A stretch of DNA of 64,000 nt from a virus, in the IMG/VR virus record IMGVR_UViG_3300032308_001297, positions 98,365 through 162,364 of that record; one strand, given 5' to 3'. This document shows positions 740-59,853 of this stretch, one piece after another. The translations under genes were made by a program, and so were the position numbers. The first letter of the stretch is position 1; every line of letters begins with the position of its first letter. Under the pieces are notes generated by a model. That model did no database searches. It had not been told where the DNA came from and saw only the letters and a program-made list of their open reading frames with translations.

Positions 740-3637
740 TTAAACGATAGTCCAAGTTGAACCAGAAGGAACTGTAACAGTTACACCACTATCTATTGTT
801 ACTGGACCAACAGTCAAAGCATTATAATTGTTTGACACTGTATAATTAGAACTTATGTTTACTGTCATTTCTATGAAAGGACTAGAAGACATTTTAATAG
901 GCGAATTCACAAAACCATTCAAAGCAACATTAGCACTAAATGTGTGATTATTAGTCCAAGTATATTGAGCAGCTGTATTAGTTCCGACAATTGTTGACCA
1001 ATAAACAGCTGAACCGTTAGATGTTAGTGCTTGACCGTTTGACCCGAAACCACCATTAGCAGAAACACCAGCACCAGAAGAAATGACAACATTGGCGTTA
1101 TATGTATGCACTCCTGTGATGGTATAAGCGCCAGCAGTATTTACATAAGAGGCTGCAGCAACACCACCAAGATTGGTAGAATTATTTGAAGTTAATGCGC
1201 TATTAACATTCAGATTACCTTCAGTTTTACTATAAGCAGTTGTGGCATTATTAACGTTTAGGCTACCTTCAGTTTTACCATAAGCGCCAGTAGAATTACC
1301 AACTAAAGTTGAGCCAGCAAAAATACCACTAGTGTTAATAACTGCCCAGTTAGTTGAGGTATTACCAAGAGCGATAGAATTGGCTTGGAAATTAGATAAT
1401 TTAAAAGAACTGTTTGAAGTATCAATATAAACGTTGGCATCTGGCTCAGGAAGATAGCTATCAAAAACTTTCCAATATCCGTCTGATGCATCTCTAAAGA
1501 AACCAGCATGACGATACGTTCCATCATTATATCCAGCTGCTAAACCAATATCAGGATTAACATCGCTTTTACCTCTTGCTGTTCCGCCTGAAATATATGA
1601 AGCAGTATTCGTATTAGCAACAACGAAATGAGTGCCATTTGCAGATATAATATTTTGATAATCACCATTATAAGAACTGGGGTTTACATTAGTTACAGAT
1701 ACGTCCCAACCAGCTGAATAGTTATTATTGGCTGTGAATATTATCTGAGTTCCATTACCAGATATATTAGTTATATTCGCAGATACGCCTTGATTAAGAA
1801 ATAACATATTATCTGTAAAAGTAATATTATTTCCTTGTAATACAGTAGAAGTTCCTGATACTGTCAGATTACCAGTCAAAGTAAGATTTACGAAAGTAAC
1901 ATTGTTAGATGATGTCACATTCTGATCCATACGATATGGAAGTCTAGCTTCTGCAAGAGTTCCAGTATTGATATTGGATGCATTAGAAGCAAATATTACA
2001 GCATTAGAATAAGCGTTTCCAGCTTTAGCGTCAGTATAACTTACAGCATTAGAATAAGCATTGGCTGCTTTATTAGTAGCATCTGTAGATGCATCAGAAA
2101 CAGCATTAGAATAAGCATTAGCAGCTTTATTGTCTGCGTAAGTTTGAAGAGTTGTTACGTTGCCTTGTAATTGAGCATTAGAAACAACATTAGCAGCAGC
2201 CACCGTACCAACGAAAGAAGTATTATTGGCAGTAAGTTTAGCAACGTTAGCTGATAGTCCAACAGAAGTCTGATAATTTGCTAGATTAGAACTTAACTGA
2301 GCATTAGAAACAACATTGGCTGCTGGTAGAGAACCAATAAACAACGCTGAATTTGATGTTGCGTTAATAGTTTGTGAGAATGTAATGGTATTGGTAAATG
2401 TTTGGGTATTGGTCCAAGTATATCGTGCAGATGTATTAATTGTTGCTACAATATTTCCACCAATAGCAACACCACCAACATAGATAGAAGAAGAATTAAT
2501 GAAAACGTTTACGCTGGAATTACCAAGAGAAATTACAGAACTGTTTACTGCAGCGCCAGAAGTTGTTGAACCCCAATAATGATTATTAGTCCAAGTATAA
2601 GTGTCTGCAGTGTTAACAGCTGAAGTAGATGGAACATATATTCCATAAACGTCAATGACAGAATTTAAAACAGGAGGAACAACAAAGACAATATCTACAC
2701 CATTGATGATAGAAACATCATCAGAGCTCATTCTTACGCCATTAAGATATACATTCAAACGTTCTGGATTATATGGAAGAGTTGTAGAAAAAGTGTCAGT
2801 GGCACCATCGCCAATAAAAGATTCTATTACGAAATTAGCTTCTGGATTTAGATTCTTAACACCAAAAACGTCAATATTTGTTCCATTTGCAGGAGCAACA
2901 GCGAATACGATATTAGCTCCTGAAGCTGTATTTACTTCTGTTCCTGTTGCTCTAACACCGTTTAAATAAACGTTTAGTGCATTGGAAGTATATCCATTAG
3001 CAACAACAAACGAAGTATTTGAACCATTACCTATATAAGATTGTTTTACATAAACGCCGTCTGAAGCGTCTAATTCATACCCAATAAAATCAATATTAAC
3101 TCCGTTAGCAGGAGCAACAGCAAATACTACGTTGGAACCCGAAGAAGTATTAGCTTCGCCGCCAGTCATTCTTATGCCATTGACATATACATTCAAATAA
3201 TCGGCATCATAACCGCCAGTAATAGCATAAGACGTTCTTACACCATTTCCTGTCGCTGATCTTATAATATGAGGAATATTAATTTCTGTTGAAGTAGAAG
3301 CCCAATAAACAGCCGAACCATTTGATGTGAGGAATAGTCCAGAATTGCCATAAGATCCACCAGCTGACACGCCACCATTAAGAACCACGTTCCCGAAAAA
3401 TGTAGCTGTATTATGTGTAGTGGTATTTCCGATAAGGTTTGCGCCATGTATTACAGCGTTGCTTTGGACGTGCAAAACATCTAAATTGGAACCAAGCACG
3501 AAAACATTGGCACCATCAGAACTAAAAAGTTTTCTATCAGTGAGATTGATTGCTAGCTCAGCAATGGAGAGCGTTGATGTGTTAGGGTATTTCCCAGCGA
3601 CAGATGAACGTCGCAGTTTGAAAACAGTATTTGCCAT
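740..3637 (-). CDS. Tail fibre protein
   Basis: Mtd-like N-terminus (FKLRRSSVAGKYP..ELAIN), three GNG..T.F..YxNGVR repeats, N/S/T/A-rich shaft. Confidence 0.75.
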   Translation of the reverse strand: MANTVFKLRRSSVAGKYPNTSTLSIAELAINLTDRKLFSSDGANVFVLGSNLDVLHVQSNAVIHGANLIGNTTTHNTATFFGNVVLNGGVSAGGSYGNSGLFLTSNGSAVYWASTSTEINIPHIIRSATGNGVRTSYAITGGYDADYLNVYVNGIRMTGGEANTSSGSNVVFAVAPANGVNIDFIGYELDASDGVYVKQSYIGNGSNTSFVVANGYTSNALNVYLNGVRATGTEVNTASGANIVFAVAPANGTNIDVFGVKNLNPEANFVIESFIGDGATDTFSTTLPYNPERLNVYLNGVRMSSDDVSIINGVDIVFVVPPVLNSVIDVYGIYVPSTSAVNTADTYTWTNNHYWGSTTSGAAVNSSVISLGNSSVNVFINSSSIYVGGVAIGGNIVATINTSARYTWTNTQTFTNTITFSQTINATSNSALFIGSLPAANVVSNAQLSSNLANYQTSVGLSANVAKLTANNTSFVGTVAAANVVSNAQLQGNVTTLQTYADNKAANAYSNAVSDASTDATNKAANAYSNAVSYTDAKAGNAYSNAVIFASNASNINTGTLAEARLPYRMDQNVTSSNNVTFVNLTLTGNLTVSGTSTVLQGNNITFTDNMLFLNQGVSANITNISGNGTQIIFTANNNYSAGWDVSVTNVNPSSYNGDYQNIISANGTHFVVANTNTASYISGGTARGKSDVNPDIGLAAGYNDGTYRHAGFFRDASDGYWKVFDSYLPEPDANVYIDTSNSSFKLSNFQANSIALGNTSTNWAVINTSGIFAGSTLVGNSTGAYGKTEGSLNVNNATTAYSKTEGNLNVNSALTSNNSTNLGGVAAASYVNTAGAYTITGVHTYNANVVISSGAGVSANGGFGSNGQALTSNGSAVYWSTIVGTNTAAQYTWTNNHTFSANVALNGFVNSPIKMSSSPFIEMTVNISSNYTVSNNYNALTVGPVTIDSGVTVTVPSGSTWTIV

Positions 3638-6596: not shown

Positions 6597-7186
6597 TATG
6601 CTGTGAACCTTGTGAAAGTAACAGATAAAGGAGTAACGGATGTACTAATATACAATCTCACAGAACCAGCACTAATATTAGCATTGAATGTTGCAAATGT
6701 AGTATTAGAACCAAGAATTCCGTATTCTGTATTATAAGTGCTTGAACCGTCTTGAGATAATAAAAATTTAGTGGCCAATACTTTGGTATTAGCAGAATCA
6801 TTGACTGCAATTAAATATTCTGCAGCGCTGCATTCGGAAACAGAAAAGGTGTCTAAAAGAGTTGATCCTGAAGAAGAAACAGAAACAGATGTTCTAGATC
6901 CTGGAGTTTCAACCCACGCTCCGTTAGCGTTTAGGTAATATTTTCCAGCGCTCTGTAATGTGGAATTTGCTGCTGTGATGGCAACATTAACAGAAGAATT
7001 ACCTATAGAAATTACATTAGCAGAAAACGTACCGCCTAGAACAGCATTGCCAGAAGTAACGTTATTATTTCCAGTACCATCAGAGGTTAATACAGCCCCA
7101 GAAGTGTGATACGCTAATTCGTTTACTCTGTTAATGAAATATTCCCAAGTATTCGTATTAGCTGTATTTGCTATTGTAATTGTCAT
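6596..7186 (-). CDS. Virion structural/fibre-like protein
   Basis: NTWEYFINRVNEL N-terminus; N/S/T-rich. Confidence 0.65.
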   Translation of the reverse strand: MTITIANTANTNTWEYFINRVNELAYHTSGAVLTSDGTGNNNVTSGNAVLGGTFSANVISIGNSSVNVAITAANSTLQSAGKYYLNANGAWVETPGSRTSVSVSSSGSTLLDTFSVSECSAAEYLIAVNDSANTKVLATKFLLSQDGSSTYNTEYGILGSNTTFATFNANISAGSVRLYISTSVTPLSVTFTRFTA

Positions 7187-7189
7187 TTA

Positions 7190-7390
7190 TTACTTTCCGT
7201 TTTCTACTAGCTGTAATAATAGAGACTTTACTTCATCTATACTCGATTCAATCTTTTTAATTCTTTCTTCATGAGTGGAAAGATTTCTTAAAGTTTCTCT
7301 TTGACGTTTATATGCTGTCAACCCAGCATTATCGACGTTCAATAAAGCCGCTTTATTATTTGGTTGTCGAATATACTCTTTAGTTTCCAT
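7190..7390 (-). CDS. Small coiled-coil protein
   Basis: Follows the DUF4815-like gene; EVKSLLLQL end. Confidence 0.65.
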   Translation of the reverse strand: METKEYIRQPNNKAALLNVDNAGLTAYKRQRETLRNLSTHEERIKKIESSIDEVKSLLLQLVENGK

Positions 7391-7391
7391 T

Positions 7392-10300
7392 TTACACCAT
7401 TAAGGCTATGCCACGAAGATCGTCGATCTTAGGTACAAACACTCCGCTTGTACTTAGTAGAACAATCTTGATAGCAAAAGTTTTGTAATCTTGGTATCTA
7501 GCGCCAGATTCGCTGTTATATTCAATGATTCCGAAATTAGAAGCATTGGCGAAAGCTCTATGAACAACTGGTCCAGTAATAGTATGAACTTCACCAGCGC
7601 CAGTTCTTGATTCAGTGATATTTACATTAGCACCACCAGGAGTGTTTGCAACAGCAATTGCCGAAGAATTAGCAAACGAAACGTAATAATAACTATTAGC
7701 CGTCAGACCACCAATAGCTGTGTTTGAGGCTGGTACAGCGTAATAAACTTTATTACCAACGCTGAATATAGAATTAGCTGCTTCGATAGCAATAGTTTCG
7801 GAAGTGTTACTTACACCAGTTGTATTGGCGGTTACATTATATGAACTGTAACCTACAGATGATGGAAGAGTGTAAACAAATTCCTTGAAATCATAACGAT
7901 CGATTGGGCTACAATACAGTTCAGAACTATCGTTATTAAGTTTAGTCCAATCTTTGTCAACTAATGTTTCAGGATCGGAAGCGGATAGGAACTTAGCGTA
8001 AACTTCAACATCAGTGTTATATGGGCGATATGCAGATAGATAAATCTTCATATCTTCTGAGTCTTGACCATCAGCAAGAACGATTGGTTGACTGATATAT
8101 CGGCATAGTGCATTACCGTTTCCAGTGTCTTCGCCGAAGCTACTGAAATTAATTGTGTTATTAATAACTTTAGCTCCCTTTCTCGAAATATCAATAGCAG
8201 GAGAAACGTATTTCTGAACACAAGTTAATTGGTTTTTAATAGTTAGAGATTTAGTATTTCCACCAAGAATTCCAGGTTCGTTAGAACGACTGTAAATCTT
8301 TCTCTCGTAATCTAACATTTCTCTTTCGATATCAAATTCTAATTCGCTGTATGTTGTATCAATTATGCCCGAATTCGAAGAACCTACGAATTCAGTAGTA
8401 ATAGCAGTGCCAAGAGGAGTAATTGTCGAGAATCTTGGAACTATAGCATGATATGCATAATCATCGATACTCACAACATTCGCAGTAGCAATTAGAGTGT
8501 TTAAGTTAGCAGCAGCTTCCGCTGTATTACCAGCAGTTCTAAATCTAAAGAAACCAATTTTTTGCGCTGGTGAGAAATTACCAGTTGAACTGTCAAGAAT
8601 CAATTGATTATTTGCAAGATCGATAGACTGCAGAGAACCATGAATAGTGGCTGGAGAGTTAATAATTGCATTTGAAGATGCATTAATAACATAAACTTCG
8701 TCTCCACTAGCCGACGAAGGAGTGACCAGAGAATTTGCTAGTGCTATACTATTATAGGTAATGAATTCGTCGTTTTCATTATCGAAATATGCCTGACCTG
8801 TACCAACAGTAAAGTTAGCAACATATAGGTTAAACTTGACGTCTTCTCTTGGTAGAGCAGTCCAAGTTCTGGCGTTTGACGAACGGAAAGATTCTCCAGT
8901 GTATGGGTTTGAACCAATTTGCGAACCAGTAATTGTATCAAAATCGCCCATTTCAGCGACCCACATATTATAATCTGGAGTGCTTGATTCGGGTTCAACC
9001 CAGAATGCATATTCTGTGTTTCCTGCAAGATAAATTGGATCGTTGAAAACAATTGTTGTTGCAGCGTTTGCAATATCAGAAATACTGACATTGTTTGCGT
9101 CAACACGACCCCATCCGAAAATCTTATTGTTGTCTGGGAGTCCTGCGTTCATTCCACAAATGATTGCTCTTATACCAGTGTTTGCGTCTTTAGATTTGAA
9201 GAACAAATCAATCTTAGTTGCGAACACACCGCTTTCTTGTTGTGGAGATTCGACTTTGAACGATTGGGCGATAGGGTCGCGGAAGTATGTAGTCGTATAA
9301 TTATAACTGTAACATGTTCTTACATCAGGGGTGATTGTAGTAATTGTTGCTTCCTGAGAAGTAGTTGTAATGTTACTTGCGACATAAGTTCCAACAGCTT
9401 TAGAGAGAGCAGCATCATCGCCGTAAACCAAACTATCGGCGTCCATGATCATGAATCTTCTTTCACCAACACGGAACTGTCCTTGTGGAATATTGAATAC
9501 ACCAAAAACGTTTCCGAATTGATCAGAGAAAATTGGATCTCCAAAATTTCCAGTTCTATTTACAGCAGTATCTGGGCGTCCAGTTCTAGCGGCTGCTGAA
9601 ACAATAGCAGAAGCAGTAGCGCCAAGAGAAGTATTTAATGATCCTGGAGCACAGTAGGCGCTAACTGGAGTTTCATCAAAATAAGCATACATTCTTGAAG
9701 ATGGCTTAACACCCGTAGCAATAAATGCGATAGTTTTAGATTTAATATATGGTTGAACAGCAATATCAGTCAAGAACCTTCCTAGTTCTACTGTATTAGT
9801 CATTGGAACATACCAATGAGTTGTTACAAGCTGTTGCCAATAAGTCCAAAGACCACTATAAACGTTACCTGATTGCGCATAAACCTGCCATGGTCCATAA
9901 TGAGAACCCCAAATATTACCAGCTTCGCCCAATTCAATGAATGGTTGCATTAGGTCTAGCACAGCATCAGCGTTTGGAATGGATGTTTCGTCTTTATTCA
10001 TATCATAGTTTGGATAAAGATTTAGCGTTCCGTTCCAAGTCCAAATGTCTTGGTTGTTGTTTCTATATTTTGTAGCGTATGGCTGGAAAATATATTGCTC
10101 GTGACTATAAGGACGAGTAACAAGTTTACCAGTTAATGTTACACCAGTGCTTGTGGTGTTATTAAACGCTAGATCTATATCTTTTGTAGTGAAGGTTGGA
10201 CGACCATGACCTTGACGAATATCAATACACCATCTATAACCTTCATCGCTTGCTTCTGCAAAAAGATGGGAGGTCATAGGATCAGCAAAAATACCGTTCT

Positions 10301-43608: not shown

Positions 43609-45222
43609 TTAATCCTGACCATCGTAAACATTTTCTTTTAGATAATCATACATAGTAGGACAATCTTTAACGATTTCTTTCCACTCAGCTTTTTTCTTAT
43701 CAAGATTATCGGCTGCATTCTTGAACCTTTCTTGCCATTCTTCTAAAGAAAGATCATTATATGCGCAAATAGCATCTATGTCAGTTGGAAAATAATTCAT
43801 ACCAGAAGCAATATATGGTATTCCACTCATTCCACCAAATCCAAAATTCTCCATCTTGGCGTCTGCAGCCCTTGTGAAGGCGCTATCAATAGATCTATCG
43901 ACAATTTTCATTTCTTCGCCGAAATTTCTACTACCAATATCTCTCCAATAAGGAGTATCGTCTCGATGAGACAAAGCGTAATGTAAAGCCACGAAATCCG
44001 CAAAATCTTTGAAGTATTTTCTACATGCAAAATTATAAACGTCTATGTCCCACTGACTAACATATCCTTCGGGATCTCTGTTAAGAGTGCGAACCATTCT
44101 CATGACAAACTCATGAACGCTTAACAAACCATTACTTTCTAACGGCTCAATAAATCCAGCAGACAATCCAATTGCTGCTACGTTTTTAACCCAAATACGT
44201 TCATGAATACCAACACGTGATTTGATGTTCTTGAATTTGATCCCTTGATTATGGAAATCCATCTCATCATCAAAGTGGCCAGTACCACGTAGATACTCTT
44301 TAAATTCTTCTAGTGCATCTTCATCGCTAATATATTTGTCGGAATAAACATATCCAGTCCCTATGCGACTCCACAAAGGAATTGTCCAAACCCATCCATT
44401 ATTGATGGCGTGACAGTTTGTATATGTAATCATTTCTCTACGTTTGTCGACATAAGGAATCTGAGCAGCCCAAGCAGAATTATTAGGAAGAATATGACTT
44501 AAAGAAATAAACGGTTCTTTTAAAGCTCCAGCCATGAGAATGGATCTAAAACCTGTGCAATCGATGAATAGATCTGCTGTAACCCTTTCGCCATTATCTA
44601 ACTGAAGAAAATTAATACCATTTTCGTCATCATAATCAACCATTTTTACTTCTGCTAATATATTCTTCACTCCTCGAGGGATAGAATATTCTGTTCTCAA
44701 CCAATTAGCAAATTTGATTGCATTAAAATGGTAGGCAGTATCTGTTCTGAATTTATAAGAAGGTAGAACACTATCTACTGAAATTTTATTTTCATTCACG
44801 AGTGCCATGATAGGGCACAAACAATCAGCATAATCGCTAGTTGGAGTTTCTGGGTATAAAAACTTTTTAAAATACCAATCATTCAGCTTTGCAACATTGC
44901 CGTCTGTGTTAACTGATCCAAACGGATAATGAAAAGCGCCAGCGCCTTTTTTATAAAAATCTTGAAATCTAATAGAAAGTTTGTAGGTTGCATCTGTAAT
45001 CTTCATGAAATCTTTATCTTTGATCTCAAGAAGTTTTAGCCAAGCATTGATATGCCCTAATGTGCTTTCTCCAACACCAACTGTTGGAATATTCGGTGAT
45101 TCGATTAATGTAATTTTTTTGTTTGGAAATACTTTAATTAACGTAGCAGCAGTCATCCATCCAGCTGATCCACCACCAACAATCACAATTTCATTAATTT
45201 TCTTGCTCATTTTACACCCCAA
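43609..45222 (-). CDS. Flavin-dependent (tryptophan-type) halogenase
   Basis: GGGSAG, GVGEST, ATYK (catalytic Lys), WVWTIP, FIEPLESNG. Confidence 0.93.
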   Translation of the reverse strand: MGCKMSKKINEIVIVGGGSAGWMTAATLIKVFPNKKITLIESPNIPTVGVGESTLGHINAWLKLLEIKDKDFMKITDATYKLSIRFQDFYKKGAGAFHYPFGSVNTDGNVAKLNDWYFKKFLYPETPTSDYADCLCPIMALVNENKISVDSVLPSYKFRTDTAYHFNAIKFANWLRTEYSIPRGVKNILAEVKMVDYDDENGINFLQLDNGERVTADLFIDCTGFRSILMAGALKEPFISLSHILPNNSAWAAQIPYVDKRREMITYTNCHAINNGWVWTIPLWSRIGTGYVYSDKYISDEDALEEFKEYLRGTGHFDDEMDFHNQGIKFKNIKSRVGIHERIWVKNVAAIGLSAGFIEPLESNGLLSVHEFVMRMVRTLNRDPEGYVSQWDIDVYNFACRKYFKDFADFVALHYALSHRDDTPYWRDIGSRNFGEEMKIVDRSIDSAFTRAADAKMENFGFGGMSGIPYIASGMNYFPTDIDAICAYNDLSLEEWQERFKNAADNLDKKKAEWKEIVKDCPTMYDYLKENVYDGQD

Positions 45223-55325: not shown

Positions 55326-55622
55326 ATGAAATGGTCTATGGCTACTCGTAAAGATTCATTCCTTGCTTCATACCAAGGAGATTGCATTACTACCTATTCT
55401 CGCCTCGTTGAAGTGTTTGGTCCGCCTCACTATACTGAATCTGGTGATGGTAAAATTACCGCCGAATGGATTATCAAATTCTCAAACGGCCAAGTAGCTA
55501 CAATATATGACTACAAAATGGGCTCGACGCCCATGGAAGAATATGCTTGGCACGTCGGCGGAAAAGGACGCCAGGTAGTTAAGCTGGTCAATCAGTTGGT
55601 CGGCGTATTGGTAGCGGCGTAG
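55326..55622 (+). CDS. Conserved phage hypothetical protein
   Basis: LVEVFGPP..DGKITAEW..ATIYDYK..WHVGG. Confidence 0.75.
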   Translation: MKWSMATRKDSFLASYQGDCITTYSRLVEVFGPPHYTESGDGKITAEWIIKFSNGQVATIYDYKMGSTPMEEYAWHVGGKGRQVVKLVNQLVGVLVAA

Positions 55623-55637
55623 GTCGCCTCGTAGGTC
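55573..55637 (+). repeat. Array 1: six WGGTM units at an exact 12-bp period
   Basis: GGT at 55574, 55586, 55598, 55610, 55622, 55634. Confidence 0.8.
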
Positions 55638-55661
55638 CTAAGGTAACAGGAGATAGGTCAA

Positions 55662-55952
55662 ATGAGTGGTATTCGAATTATAGTTGGTGACTCTCAGGGA
55701 GTCTATATTCCAAAATCATTCGTCAATAATTGGTCAGAGGGTTGGTCGGCGATTGAACCCGACGATGTAAAAAATATTGAGGAAGGACCAGAAGCGGATT
55801 TTTATTGGGAGGCCTGGGATAATATATTAAGAGATGCTTTCCTAGTAGATCAGAATGGTAGGGAATGGCATCTATATCAGGACGGCGATCTATTCGCCTA
55901 TTGCGAGGAATTAATGACCGAAGAGGAAAAAGAAAACTTCTTTGGTTATTAA
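55662..55952 (+). CDS. Conserved phage hypothetical protein
   Basis: GVYIP..YWEAWD..LYQDGDLFA. Confidence 0.75.
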   Translation: MSGIRIIVGDSQGVYIPKSFVNNWSEGWSAIEPDDVKNIEEGPEADFYWEAWDNILRDAFLVDQNGREWHLYQDGDLFAYCEELMTEEEKENFFGY

Positions 55953-55969
55953 GTAGGTCGTTCAGATGT

Positions 55970-56034
55970 TGGTCATAGGGTTGGTCGAGGCGTAGGTCAG
56001 CGCCTTGGTCAGCCCACTGGTCGTTGTCTAGGTC
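55970..56034 (+). repeat. Array 2: six WGGTC units at an exact 12-bp period
   Basis: GGTC at 55971, 55983, 55995, 56007, 56019, 56031 (an extra copy at 55956). Confidence 0.85.
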
Positions 56035-56117
56035 AAAGAGTCAGTAGATGAATAAACGAGTCAACAATAAAAACTACTGCAGCGGCGTAAACTAAGCCAA
56101 TTGTAATTCCTAATACT

Positions 56118-56345
56118 CTACTCATCATCCTCTCCAAAATATTTGTCCCACTCTGCTGTCGTAATTCCTGTCTTAATAAACTCTCGTTGGCCCTCGGATA
56201 GGTCAGGGAATGCCTCTTGTATTAATAACTTCCCGTGACTCCAGGCGAGATATCTACGCTCGAAATCTTCCTGCTCGTATTGGTTAATCAGTAGGGTGTG
56301 CCATTGGTCAGTCATTGGTGACTGTTTGGTTATTCTGGCTGGCAT
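56118..56345 (-). CDS. Conserved phage hypothetical protein
   Basis: LIQEAFPDLS..QREFIKTGIT..EW. Confidence 0.75.
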   Translation of the reverse strand: MPARITKQSPMTDQWHTLLINQYEQEDFERRYLAWSHGKLLIQEAFPDLSEGQREFIKTGITTAEWDKYFGEDDE

Positions 56346-59336: not shown

Positions 59337-59557
59337 CAGTCCTCCTCGTCTAGTTCTTCTTCGGAAGAAATAATACGAACACGATCAGCCCAAGCCAGAG
59401 CCTCGGCGACTCGTCCTAAAGCATCGTCATCGAAACCAGTACCTCCTTGTGTGAGATACTCGTTGATTAACTTAATGGCTTCGCTAGCATCGTTGGATGT
59501 AATCGCCCATTCCTCTTTCATTAGATTTTCCTCAACAGAGAAGGAGATACTTTCCAA
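59336..59557 (-). CDS. Hypothetical protein
   Basis: Coupled ORF. Confidence 0.55.
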   Translation of the reverse strand: MESISFSVEENLMKEEWAITSNDASEAIKLINEYLTQGGTGFDDDALGRVAEALAWADRVRIISSEEELDEED

Positions 59558-59853
59558 TTAGATGCAGGGTTGGAAAGCGTTGATACTGTTTTTACTGATA
59601 TTGTTTTCTGATTAACTTTGTTAACAATACCAGTGATATTCTCGCCAGTGCGACTCTTAAAAGAAACCTTATCGCCCACTTGAAAAAACACAGCTGCACG
59701 TCTCTGTAATTCACGAAACCGAGCATTAATGGCGCTCTGGGCGTCGCGAAGATCTTCTAGATTATCGATAGCGAAAATAGCTTTATTGATAGACATCTCA
59801 CTTCTCCTCATCAACCATAGACATAGTATAGCCCGATCTTTTAAAAAAATCAA
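59521..59853 (-). CDS. SH3/KOW-like hypothetical protein (start likely MSINK)
   Basis: FQVGDKVSF..G.V.KVNQKT..WKVSPSLL. Confidence 0.7.
   Translation of the reverse strand: MIFLKDRAILCLWLMRRSEMSINKAIFAIDNLEDLRDAQSAINARFRELQRRAAVFFQVGDKVSFKSRTGENITGIVNKVNQKTISVKTVSTLSNPASNWKVSPSLLRKI

What the first reader, a model, noticed from the sequence alone, without database searches (positions are those of the whole stretch)
55573..56034. Two six-unit WGGTC arrays with an exact 12-bp period at the convergence of early transcription
Seen: GGT(C/A) recurs at 55574/586/598/610/622/634, and GGTC at 55971/983/995/56007/019/031, with variable spacers. A further 12-bp pair lies at 55732/55744. Array 1 starts inside ORF 55326..55622 and keeps phase past the stop codon, so the signal is in the nucleic acid rather than the protein. 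Inference: six sites 12 nt apart fit a hexameric ring. On the minus strand the units read GACCW (C-rich, YC dimers) downstream of the leftward operon, like an idealised Rho rut site. Alternatively they are primase or helicase loading sites (T7 primase recognises 5'-TGGTC) or packaging/injection signals.
Basis: partly seen in the sequence, partly recalled or inferred. Interest (0 to 1): 0.8.

Follow-up and report, generated by a model that had tools for sequence, protein, structure and literature searches.

The report
Phased 12-bp GGTCA repeat arrays
An uncultured relative of phage T4 carries, at essentially one place in its genome, rows of a conserved 8-base motif (RTWGGTCA) spaced exactly 12 bases apart; at least 12 related uncultured phages keep such rows, so they are a real and apparently undescribed signal, probably docking sites for an unidentified protein.

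Summary
GGT(C/A) chains with an exact 12-bp period at 55574 (x6) and 55971 (x6) are the only chains of 3 or more in the whole 162-kb genome. In 100 Markov simulations the longest chain was 2-3.

The arrays are conserved. At least 12 independent uncultured T4-like contigs carry co-oriented arrays of 3-11 units. Eleven of them show the same gene architecture, although the flanking proteins are only 36-80% identical.

The unit is R-T-W-G-G-T-C-A plus 3-4 unconstrained bases. The free bases carry other codes: Shine-Dalgarno sequences, codons, and a terminator-like hairpin in the junction array.

In five long relative contigs the arrays occur only at this locus. One smaller contig has a second site. 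They are absent from T4, Cr30 and phiM12, and a capped bacterial scan gave only five variable-spacer rows, all with a CTTGGTCA core that I judged probably coding without checking.

"Six sites for a hexamer" is not supported, because copy number varies. The T7-primase analogy fails on membership: the phage has gp41/gp61-type genes and no T7-type zinc ribbon. A minus-strand Rho rut fits spacing and composition but does not explain the conserved 8-nt core.

Best reading (about 0.4): head-to-tail binding sites on duplex DNA for an unidentified phage protein, perhaps an origin or an operon boundary. The function is unproven.

The parts
55570..55645 (+). Array 1. Six units at an exact 12-bp period: gccaGGTAg, agctGGTCa, agttGGTCg, tattGGTAg, cgtaGGTCg, cgtaGGTCc. 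The first four lie inside the 3' end of ORF 55326..55622, which there encodes ...VVKLVNQLVGVLVAA. The last two lie past the stop codon.
   Evidence: Homologous arrays of 3-11 units lie at the same gene end in L125, L128, L129, L130, L269, L271, L309 and L344.
55641..55664 (+). Translation-initiation region of the next gene: aGGTAacAGGAGAtaGGTCaaATG. The Shine-Dalgarno sequence sits between two out-of-phase units, and the last unit abuts the start codon.
   Evidence: Relatives have the in-phase module GGTCAGGAGATAGGTCATG in front of four different gene families.
55967..56038 (+). Array 2. Six units at an exact 12-bp period: tgttGGTCa, ggttGGTCg, cgtaGGTCa, ccttGGTCa, cactGGTCg, tctaGGTCa. It lies in the convergent intergenic gap. 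An out-of-phase unit, AGGTC at 55955, follows the TAA stop.
   Evidence: Junction arrays of 5-9 units lie at the same place in relatives.
55964..56029 (+). Long imperfect hairpin built from units 1-5 of array 2, with unit 3 as the loop. It uses complementary spacers plus G.U-containing GGUC:GGUC pairs. Predicted energy is -33.1 kcal/mol on the + RNA and -16.7 on the - RNA.
   Evidence: z -4.0 on the + strand, -1.9 on the - strand. Junction arrays of L130, L269, L271, L309 and L329 fold better than unit-order permutations of themselves (sense strand z -2.4 to -3.1; antisense z -0.8 to -3.7). Internal arrays do not. One compensatory pair change, CCCGC/GCGGG versus CTCGT/GCGAG, is seen in L329.
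55326..55622 (+). Gene for a 98-aa protein (P0039 family). In 10 syntenic loci an array always starts in its 3' end. It is the only non-acidic product of the + operon (pI 7.8).
   Evidence: AlphaFold2 pLDDT 86; no significant fold match (best VIA Z 7.2, mitoribosomal protein 6z1p_AR; adaptin-appendage chains Z 5.2-6.1; TBP/KH-like chains Z 3-4).
55662..55952 (+). Gene bracketed by the two arrays: 96 aa, acidic, phrog_21544. It is a variable cassette, replaced in relatives by another gene family or absent.
   Evidence: Homologues in non-syntenic contexts (L127, L237, L240-L242) have no arrays beside them.
55732..55747 (+). Isolated 12-bp pair of TGGTC inside the coding sequence (TGG TCA GAG GGT TGG TCG, Trp-Ser-Glu-Gly-Trp-Ser). 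Probably a coding coincidence.
56118..56345 (-). Convergent 75-aa gene (phrog_20898), the constant right-hand neighbour of the junction array. In L130 and L238 an array also lies immediately upstream of its start codon.
   Evidence: AlphaFold2 pLDDT 89; no fold match (best Z 3.1).
56036..56131 (-). Possible 31-codon hydrophobic ORF (MMSRVLGITIGLVYAAAVVFIVDSFIHLLTL). Its TGA stop is the TGACC of the outermost unit of array 2. It is not a called gene.
   Evidence: Read from the sequence and translated. No homology test was made.

Best explanation
The arrays are cis-acting binding sites on double-stranded DNA for a sequence-specific protein, probably phage-encoded and not yet identified. The protein binds head-to-tail, one protomer per 12 bp. 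Each protomer reads the 8-bp core R-T-W-G-G-T-C-A and ignores the next 3-4 bp.

Because 12 bp exceeds one helical turn, successive protomers would be rotated by about 50 degrees. The protein row would therefore spiral round the DNA, or untwist it. Two or three co-oriented arrays within 1 kb would form one nucleoprotein complex at a locus that is unique in most of these genomes.

For the role of that complex my pick is an iteron-type replication origin or its control region (about 0.2). This choice rests on three points: the locus is single in most genomes, it lies in the zone of the cumulative GC-skew minimum, and it sits where transcription direction switches, as several T4 origins do. The near-equal alternative (about 0.2) is an insulator or roadblock that separates the two convergent early operons and controls the cassette between the arrays.

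Shown: the motif, the phasing, conservation, co-orientation, single-locus distribution, and the overlap with other codes.

Inferred: that the ligand is a protein, that it binds duplex DNA, and what the complex does.
For: 1. Selection acts on an 8-position core only. In 117 distinct units from 13 loci the information per position is R 0.46, T 1.5, W 0.88, G 2, G 2, T 2, C 1.55 and A 0.99 bits. The remaining 4 positions carry 0.02-0.06 bits.
2. Position -1 is A or T in equal shares (57/58). This is typical of duplex recognition and argues against selection for UGGUCA self-pairing.
3. Spacing is rigid. Of adjacent WGGTM pairs 11-13 bp apart, 115 are at 12, 6 at 11 and 3 at 13. The opposite strand shows no peak.
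4. All arrays of a locus are co-oriented across a convergent junction. They occur in both orientations relative to the local genes: L130 array 3, L238 array B and the second G010 site are antisense to the adjacent genes.
5. In five relatives' contigs of 22-147 kb the pattern occurs only at this locus, on one strand in four of them (one lone reverse-strand GGTCT-type match in G005). Control-pattern counts were 0-1. The own genome likewise has one locus.
6. The free spacer positions carry independent signals: Shine-Dalgarno sequences, codons of the upstream gene, and a hairpin stem. This is expected if only the core is read.
7. Copy number changes by whole units between close relatives: 7, 8 and 11 units in L129, L128 and L125.
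8. A capped bacterial scan gave 115 arrays, of which only five had variable spacers. All five have a CTTGGTCA core and I judged them probably coding, without checking. This favours a phage-specific ligand.
9. The locus lies inside the broad minimum of cumulative GC skew, 150-160 kb of 162 kb.
Against: - No binder was found. All products of the + operon except one are acidic.
- The two best-placed small proteins fold confidently but match no DNA-binding fold.
- No Pfam or PHROG function was found for the neighbours.
- No obvious AT-rich unwinding element lies beside the arrays (sequence).
- T4-type phages are not known to use initiator-iteron origins.
- The last unit sits precisely at start codons of four gene families. 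This is what an RNA-level translational operator would look like.
- One contig (G010) has two array sites 13 kb apart.
- A few 13-nt steps occur in L238 array B.
- GC skew in phages largely follows gene orientation, so point 9 above is weak.
Confidence: 0.4

Rival explanations
1. Sense-strand RNA element. On the + operon mRNA the GGUCA units are bound by a multimeric RNA-binding protein, or pair with each other. This occludes the Shine-Dalgarno sequence and start codon of the next cistron (a translational operator or coupling device). At the operon end the units form a 3' hairpin that terminates or stabilises the transcript.
For: - The module GGUCA-GGAGAUA-GGUCA-UG places the Shine-Dalgarno sequence between the last two units, with the A of the last unit serving as the A of AUG, in front of four unrelated gene families.
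- GGUC pairs with GGUC through G.U, so only the + RNA forms the long hairpin of array 2 (-33.1 versus -16.7 kcal/mol).
- Junction arrays fold better than permuted controls, and one compensatory change is seen.
- Most arrays start in the 3' end of a + gene, in sense orientation.
Against: - Internal arrays have no excess structure (z 0 to +2.3).
- A at -1 in half of the units breaks UGGUCA self-pairing.
- L130 array 3, L238 array B and G010 site 2 read UGACC in the local mRNAs.
- The hairpin stems are G-C spacer pairs that exist on both strands.
- No RNA-binding protein was identified.
Confidence: 0.2
2. Minus-strand Rho utilisation sites. Transcripts of the leftward operon read UGACC every 12 nt. 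Host Rho loads on this C-rich, G-poor RNA after the last stop codon and terminates transcription before it runs antisense into the rightward operon. Array 1 is a back-up site.
For: - On the minus strand the arrays have C/G = 1.76 and a CC dimer every 12 nt.
- This meets the published rut descriptor of a 78-nt window with C/G above 1 and cytosines every 11-13 nt (PMC6407284).
- Array 2 begins at the stop codon region of the leftward genes, in a gap with no hairpin-plus-U terminator.
- Minus-strand windows from 56066 to 55598 all have C/G of 1.3-2.75, against a window median of 0.89.
Against: - Rho's primary site reads only YC, so it does not explain about 11 bits of conserved core with random spacers.
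- Many arrays are 3-5 units (36-60 nt), well short of 70-80 nt.
- The high C/G extends over the whole antisense of the + genes, so it is not specific to the arrays.
- The junction array is partly locked in a hairpin.
- Some arrays lie upstream of or between minus-strand genes.
- In five contigs of 22-147 kb there is one locus, not one per operon end.
- Each unit also contains a G.
Confidence: 0.12
3. Primosome or primase start sites on displaced single-stranded DNA of a T4-type R-loop origin. The G-rich + transcript forms a stable R-loop. The displaced + strand then offers a row of identical sites where the phage helicase-primase starts lagging-strand primers.
For: - The non-template strand has G/C = 1.76. 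By general knowledge, not tested here, this favours R-loops.
- T4 origins oriF and oriG work through R-loops and lie near switches of transcription direction (PMC3016281).
- The core contains GTC, the T7-type recognition triplet, preceded by conserved template positions.
- The locus is single in most genomes and lies near the skew minimum.
Against: - The genome has no T7-type primase zinc ribbon. Its primase match is gp61/DnaG-type (E 2.4e-4, below the Pfam cut-off), whose T4 homologue uses GTT/GCT.
- Primases do not need phased sites.
- No adjacent promoter-plus-unwinding-element module was seen.
- GGTC is not enriched genome-wide.
Confidence: 0.1
4. Recombination modules without a dedicated ligand. 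Repeats at gene borders act as homology patches that shuffle small early-gene cassettes, as the PeSL elements of T4-type phages do. The phasing is a by-product of unit slippage.
For: - The gene between the arrays differs among relatives: phrog_21544, a 105-aa family, a 54-aa ORF, or none.
- Copy number changes by whole units.
- The same initiation-region module precedes four gene families.
Against: - Homology-driven exchange would conserve whole units. What is seen is an invariant core with randomised spacers across phages whose proteins are 36-80% identical.
- Strict co-orientation and single-locus distribution are not required by this model.
Confidence: 0.08

Closest known systems
Iterons of plasmid and phage replication origins (lambda ori/O, R6K gamma, P4 ori/crr)
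   Same: Tandem co-oriented direct repeats in two or three clusters. One locus per genome in most contigs examined. Conserved core with a variable remainder. The arrays partly overlap a gene end. The locus lies near a compositional-skew switch.
   Different: The period is 12 bp rather than about 19-22 bp. No initiator gene or AT-rich unwinding element was recognised. The host phage is T4-type, for which only R-loop and recombination-dependent initiation are established (PMC3016281).
T4 oriE '12-nt direct repeats' (Kreuzer and Brister review, PMC3016281)
   Same: Described as evenly spaced 12-nt repeats at an origin of a T4-type phage, conserved in close relatives, with unknown role.
   Different: In T4 the repeat next to oriE is a 24-nt coding repeat of the gp5 beta-helix (GTTGAAGGTAAT...), inside gene 5. 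It has no GGTCA core, and T4 has no GGTC x3 chain at period 12. It is not homologous.
Centromere-like arrays parC (plasmid R1, 11-bp repeats in two blocks of five) and tubC (pBtoxis, 12-bp repeats), and P2 Cox boxes (six 9-bp direct repeats at helical spacing). Recalled from general knowledge, not checked here.
   Same: Short direct repeats of 9-12 bp, head-to-tail, in blocks of 3-6 or more that flank a central segment. They are bound cooperatively by small proteins that form a helical filament, and copy number is variable.
   Different: No ParR, TubR or Cox homologue and no partner NTPase was recognised. The phage looks lytic and T4-like, so it has no evident need for partition or an excision switch. 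The arrays here overlap coding ends and ribosome-binding sites.
Rho utilisation (rut) sites
   Same: The minus-strand RNA is C-rich and G-poor, with cytosine dimers every 12 nt over about 72 nt, downstream of a stop codon at an operon end (PMC6407284).
   Different: rut sites have no conserved sequence core and are not confined to one locus. Here an 8-nt core is conserved, copy number is 3-11, and part of the array is a hairpin.
T7 gp4 primase recognition sites 5'-(G/T)GGTC
   Same: Half of the units read TGGTC.
   Different: The other half read AGGTC. No T7-type primase-helicase is encoded. T7 sites are dispersed, not phased.
PeSL mobile regulatory cassettes of T4-type phages (recalled from general knowledge, not checked here)
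   Same: Repeated intergenic elements that flank small early genes in a plastic region. A stem-loop is included, and gene content between the elements varies.
   Different: PeSLs are promoter-plus-stem-loop units dispersed at many sites. These arrays are motif arrays with exact phasing at one locus.

Membership tests
Rho utilisation site | C/G ratio above 1 with cytosines spaced every 11-13 nt on the transcript | tested here: met
   The minus strand of the arrays has C/G 1.76 and CC every 12 nt. Criterion taken from PMC6407284.
Rho utilisation site | At least 70-80 nt of unstructured, untranslated RNA | tested here: inconclusive
   The window arrays are 72 nt, but relatives have 36-132 nt. The junction array folds (-16.7 kcal/mol on the minus RNA). 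Some arrays lie between genes.
Rho utilisation site | Termination depends on Rho (bicyclomycin-sensitive 3' ends) | not testable with these tools
The phage is uncultured.
T7-type primase recognition sites | A gp4-type primase with the T7 zinc-ribbon is encoded | tested here: not met
   PF08273 has no match in the 98%-complete genome. A separate DnaB-like helicase is present, with a weak match (E 2.4e-4, below the Pfam cut-off) to a DnaG-type zinc ribbon.
T7-type primase recognition sites | Site sequence 5'-(G/T)GGTC or GTGTC | tested here: inconclusive
   Position -1 is T in 58 and A in 57 of 117 units, and never G except once.
Iteron-type replication origin | Several co-oriented direct repeats with a conserved core at one locus | tested here: met
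Iteron-type replication origin | Adjacent gene for the iteron-binding initiator | tested here: inconclusive
   The P0039-family gene is always fused to an array, but it has no recognisable DNA-binding fold. PF09681 is absent.
Iteron-type replication origin | AT-rich unwinding element beside the repeats; initiation maps there | not tested
   Only visual reading of 56040-56120 showed no striking AT tract. Initiation mapping needs experiments.
T4 oriE iterons | Repeat homologous and syntenic to the gene 5 / repEA-repEB region of T4 | tested here: not met
   The T4 repeat is a 24-nt coding repeat in gene 5. The arrays here lie between small early genes near the nrdC.10 homologue.
ParR/parC or TubR/tubC centromere | Adjacent adaptor gene plus actin-like or tubulin-like NTPase gene | not tested
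   No such domain appeared in the Pfam or PHROG scans of neighbouring ORFs. The whole genome was not searched for ParM or TubZ.

The most novel reading that the evidence does not exclude
A clade of uncultured T4-like phages uses a so far undescribed cis-element. It is a phased row of RTWGGTCA sites read by a dedicated oligomeric phage factor that acts on one strand, either nascent RNA or displaced DNA. The factor could be a phage-specific termination or anti-termination machine, or a primosome-loading platform that defines a protein-dependent origin in a T4-type genome.
Probability: 0.2. Interest if true: 0.8.

Novelty: new variant of a known kind. Interest (0 to 1): 0.6.

Why it matters
T4-type phages are among the best studied viruses, yet no phased, sequence-specific repeat array of this kind is described for them. 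The only '12-nt iterons' in that literature, at T4 oriE, turn out here to be a coding repeat.

The present arrays are under clear purifying selection and are conserved across phages whose flanking proteins have diverged to 36-80% identity. In most of the contigs examined they are confined to one locus. They therefore mark something the phage needs in cis.

If the locus is an origin, it would be the first iteron-type origin in the T4 superfamily. It would also give a handle for finding origins in the many uncultured relatives. If it is a transcription boundary, it would be a new way to end convergent early operons.

The element also shows how tightly several codes can be packed: a protein-binding core, Shine-Dalgarno sequences, codons and a terminator stem share the same 12-bp frame.

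Tried and rejected
- **Protein-level repeat.** Rejected. The two arrays lie in different frames relative to the upstream ORFs, and no frame is consistently open (15-117 stops per 532 codons).
- **Stop-codon readthrough or recoding.** Array 2 is in frame with the upstream gene in W, L125, L128 and L130. This is explained by the first unit overlapping the conserved C-terminal Phe-Gly codons. In-frame TAA and TGA stops recur inside the arrays.
- **Plain tandem duplication.** Rejected, because the spacers are random.
- **Hairpins as the whole explanation.** Rejected, because only junction arrays fold better than permuted controls.
- **Homology to the T4 oriE repeats.** Rejected.
- **Link to the AAA protein.** The co-occurrence in L031 is a coincidence. 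L031's arrays are a 6-nt coding repeat, and the AAA protein is the widespread T4 NrdC.10 homologue.
- **Binder search.** Pfam and PHROG scans of 20 neighbouring ORFs gave nothing useful. AlphaFold2 plus Foldseek and VIA searches of two families gave no significant match. A search for longer fused forms of the P0039 domain gave no informative partner. Atlas look-ups gave only unnamed viral clusters, and DUF7205 / MscS-beta-like clusters for the basic 96-aa protein 59521..59811.
- **Close cultured relatives.** None were found in the phage collection. The arrays are absent from T4, Cr30 and phiM12; DLP_6 has two lone GGTCT-type matches.
- **Host counterpart.** Script filtering kept 115 arrays and only five variable-spacer rows.
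- **Pattern scans.** Counts of array-bearing contigs are therefore lower bounds.
Full report
**Source.** The window is the last 64 kb of a 162,364-bp viral record that is 98% complete by CheckV and has 36.9% G+C. Gene content marks it as a distant T4-type myovirus:
- baseplate wedge proteins nearest to Caulobacter phage Cr30, Sinorhizobium phiM12 and Stenotrophomonas DLP_6;
- a gp41-like helicase, and a weak match (E 2.4e-4, below the Pfam cut-off) to a DnaG/gp61-type primase zinc ribbon;
- homologues of T4 NrdC.10 and of the PseT phosphatase.

No close relative exists in the phage collection. An identical 8.3-kb stretch occurs on a 160.8-kb metagenome scaffold.

**The observation.**
- GGT[AC] chains at period 12 with 3 or more members exist at only two places in the whole genome, on one strand: 55574 x6 and 55971 x6.
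- In 100 first-order Markov simulations the longest chain was 2 (96 runs) or 3 (4 runs).
- GGTC is not over-represented overall.
- The two arrays are read in different frames by their upstream ORFs. Across 24 arrays of this family no frame is kept open. The signal is therefore not a peptide repeat.

**Conservation.** Homologues of the bracketed 96-aa protein led to syntenic contigs, and pattern scans of viral contigs led to more.
- At least 12 independent phages carry the arrays: W, L125/126, L128/129, L130/131, L238/239, L269, L271, L309/336/277, L344, L329, L298 and L279. L349 is a further candidate with the convergent layout but no homologous flanking genes.
- Copy numbers are 3-11, and the arrays of a locus are all co-oriented.
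- The flanking proteins are 50-63% (98-aa family, syntenic loci) and 38-79% (75-aa family) identical to the window's.
- From 117 distinct units the logo is R(0.46 bit) T(1.5) W(0.88) G G T (2 each) C(1.55) A(0.99). The other four positions carry 0.02-0.06 bit.
- Adjacent units are 12 bp apart in 115 cases, 11 in 6 and 13 in 3.
- Close relatives differ by whole units: 7, 8 and 11.

**Architecture**. A rightward operon of small acidic proteins ends with a 92-98-aa gene (window 55326..55622). An array always begins in the last 12-16 codons of that gene, forcing the helix ...VVxLVxxLVA.
- Homologues without arrays end differently (L121, L123).
- Downstream comes an optional cassette: the 96-aa phrog_21544 gene in W, L125, L128 and L130; a 105-aa family in L269 and L309; a 54-aa ORF in L271; nothing in L344 and L329.
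- After the cassette comes a junction array, and then the convergent 75-aa gene (phrog_20898).
- L344, L269 and L309 have a further array in front of the 94-aa gene.
- L130 and L238 have one immediately upstream of the 75-aa gene, antisense to it.
- G010 has a second site 13 kb away, between two leftward genes.
- The arrays fill the intergenic space completely. The Shine-Dalgarno sequence sits in a spacer (GGTCA-GGAGATA-GGTCA-TG), and this module precedes four unrelated gene families.

**Distribution.**
- In five relatives' contigs of 22-147 kb, GGTC-N8-GGTC-N8-GGTC occurs only at this locus, 5-9 overlapping matches. Four of them have matches on one strand only; G005 has one further lone GGTCT-type match on the reverse strand elsewhere. 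Control counts were 0-1.
- The pattern is absent from T4, Cr30 and phiM12. DLP_6 has two single GGTCT-type matches, which I regard as chance-like.
Filtering gave 115 arrays and only five variable-spacer rows, all with a CTTGGTCA core. I judged these probably coding, but did not check.

**Embedded hairpin.** Array 2 folds on the + RNA into a 66-nt hairpin (55964-56029, -33.1 kcal/mol, z -4.0). It uses complementary spacers and G.U-containing GGUC:GGUC pairs. The minus RNA reaches only -16.7 kcal/mol.
- Against a stricter null, permuting the order of the same units, the junction arrays of L130, L269, L271, L309 and L329 are more stable on the sense strand (z -2.4 to -3.1). Four of them are also more stable on the antisense strand (z -2.4 to -3.7); L329 is not (-0.8). 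W is weaker (z -1.35). Internal arrays show no excess (z 0 to +2.3).
- The conserved stem is CCCGC-TGGTCA-TTAAGT-TGGTCA-GCGGG. L329 has CTCGT...GCGAG, one compensatory pair change.
- The junction array therefore also carries a terminator-like stem written into its free positions. This does not explain the arrays as such. No U-tract follows, and the consensus scan found no intrinsic terminator in the gap.

- *Hexamer.* The count of six is not conserved.
- *T7-type primase.* No T7-type zinc ribbon is encoded, and half of the units read AGGTC.
- *Rho.* The minus strand meets the formal rut descriptor (C/G 1.76, CC every 12 nt). However, high C/G extends over the whole antisense of the + genes. 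Rho reads only YC, whereas about 11 bits of core are conserved. Short arrays, arrays inside leftward operons and the single-locus distribution all fit a general terminator poorly. I keep it at about 0.12.

**What it most likely is.** Several features together fit a sequence-specific protein that polymerises head-to-tail on duplex DNA:
- a short, fully conserved core with A/T equivalence at one position;
- rigid 12-bp spacing and strict co-orientation;
- occurrence in both orientations relative to genes;
- one locus per genome in most contigs;
- free use of the spacers for other codes.

ParR, TubR, omega and P2 Cox bind their repeat arrays in this way (general knowledge). What the complex does is inference. 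A single conserved cis-locus in a lytic phage, in the zone of the cumulative GC-skew minimum and at a switch of transcription direction, as for several T4 origins (PMC3016281), suggests an origin or its control region. An insulator between the convergent early operons is about as likely. The precise overlap with start codons keeps an RNA-level operator alive as the main rival (0.2).

**The binder is unknown.**
- The 98-aa and 75-aa proteins fold confidently (pLDDT 86 and 89). They match nothing significant: best Foldseek E 0.16; VIA Z 7.2 for a mitoribosomal protein, 5.2-6.1 for adaptin-appendage chains and 3-4 for TBP/KH-like chains; Z up to 3.1 for the 75-aa protein.
- The only strongly basic neighbour is the 96-aa product of 59521..59811 (pI 11.0). 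Its gene is preceded by an array module in L308. This is a lead and was not tested.

**Limits.**
- All relatives are metagenomic fragments.
- Gene calls in relatives are simple longest-ORF calls checked by BLAST against the window.

Noticed in passing
L031:5860-9231; also L144, L166, L206 and many other viral contigs: A separate, very common repeat: (GGTCTN)n / (NAGACC)n hexamer arrays in modules of about 209 bp. They read as tandem small ORFs made of (Thr-x)n ending ...SDATWNAW. In three T4-like contigs they lie between genes homologous to the own genome's C1:9611-10657 ORF and its gp41-like helicase gene. The own genome has no such array.
   Followed up: partly
L227:1580-1668, L261:431-507, L289:6299-6375, L300:1344-1420, L252 (reverse strand) 7913-8001: 12-nt TTGGTCAA repeats lie inside genes for siphovirus-type replication proteins. 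These have an N-terminal replisome-organiser-like region, and L227 has a C-terminal Phg_2220_C domain. The repeats encode (V/L)-D-Q-x linkers. They could be origin iterons embedded in the initiator gene. The motif resembles the one studied here, but the resemblance may come from the codons GAC CAA.
   Followed up: partly
L477:1866-1935 (G010:C1:13865-13934): Here the array is preceded by a strong Shine-Dalgarno sequence (GAAGGAGG) and a GTG start. It is open as a 17-codon ORF, (V)LWSPTWSMSWSLCWSL, in the Trp-Ser frame. The nine-unit array of L279 is open in the same frame but has no start codon.
   Followed up: no
L238:1974-2048, 2591-2654, 3377-3439, 7161-7226 and others: A family of intergenic repeats of about 65-75 bp (77-90% identical) is dispersed between small early genes of the L238/L239 phage. 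They resemble the PeSL-type regulatory cassettes of T4-type phages.
   Followed up: no
window 56036-56131 (-): An uncalled 31-codon hydrophobic ORF overlaps the end of the 75-aa gene. Its start lies in GGAGAGGATGATG, and its stop codon is supplied by the outermost repeat unit.
   Followed up: no
window 55518-55534 (-): A terminator-like hairpin plus T-run (ATGGGCGTCGAGCCCAT TTTGTAGTCA) lies on the minus strand just downstream of array 1, inside the 98-aa gene. It may be a chance match.
   Followed up: no
window 43609-45222 (-); L127:3059-4090: The phage encodes a flavin-dependent tryptophan-halogenase-like protein (Pfam E 2.6e-109). A related contig carries a cytochrome P450 gene in its early region.
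   Followed up: no
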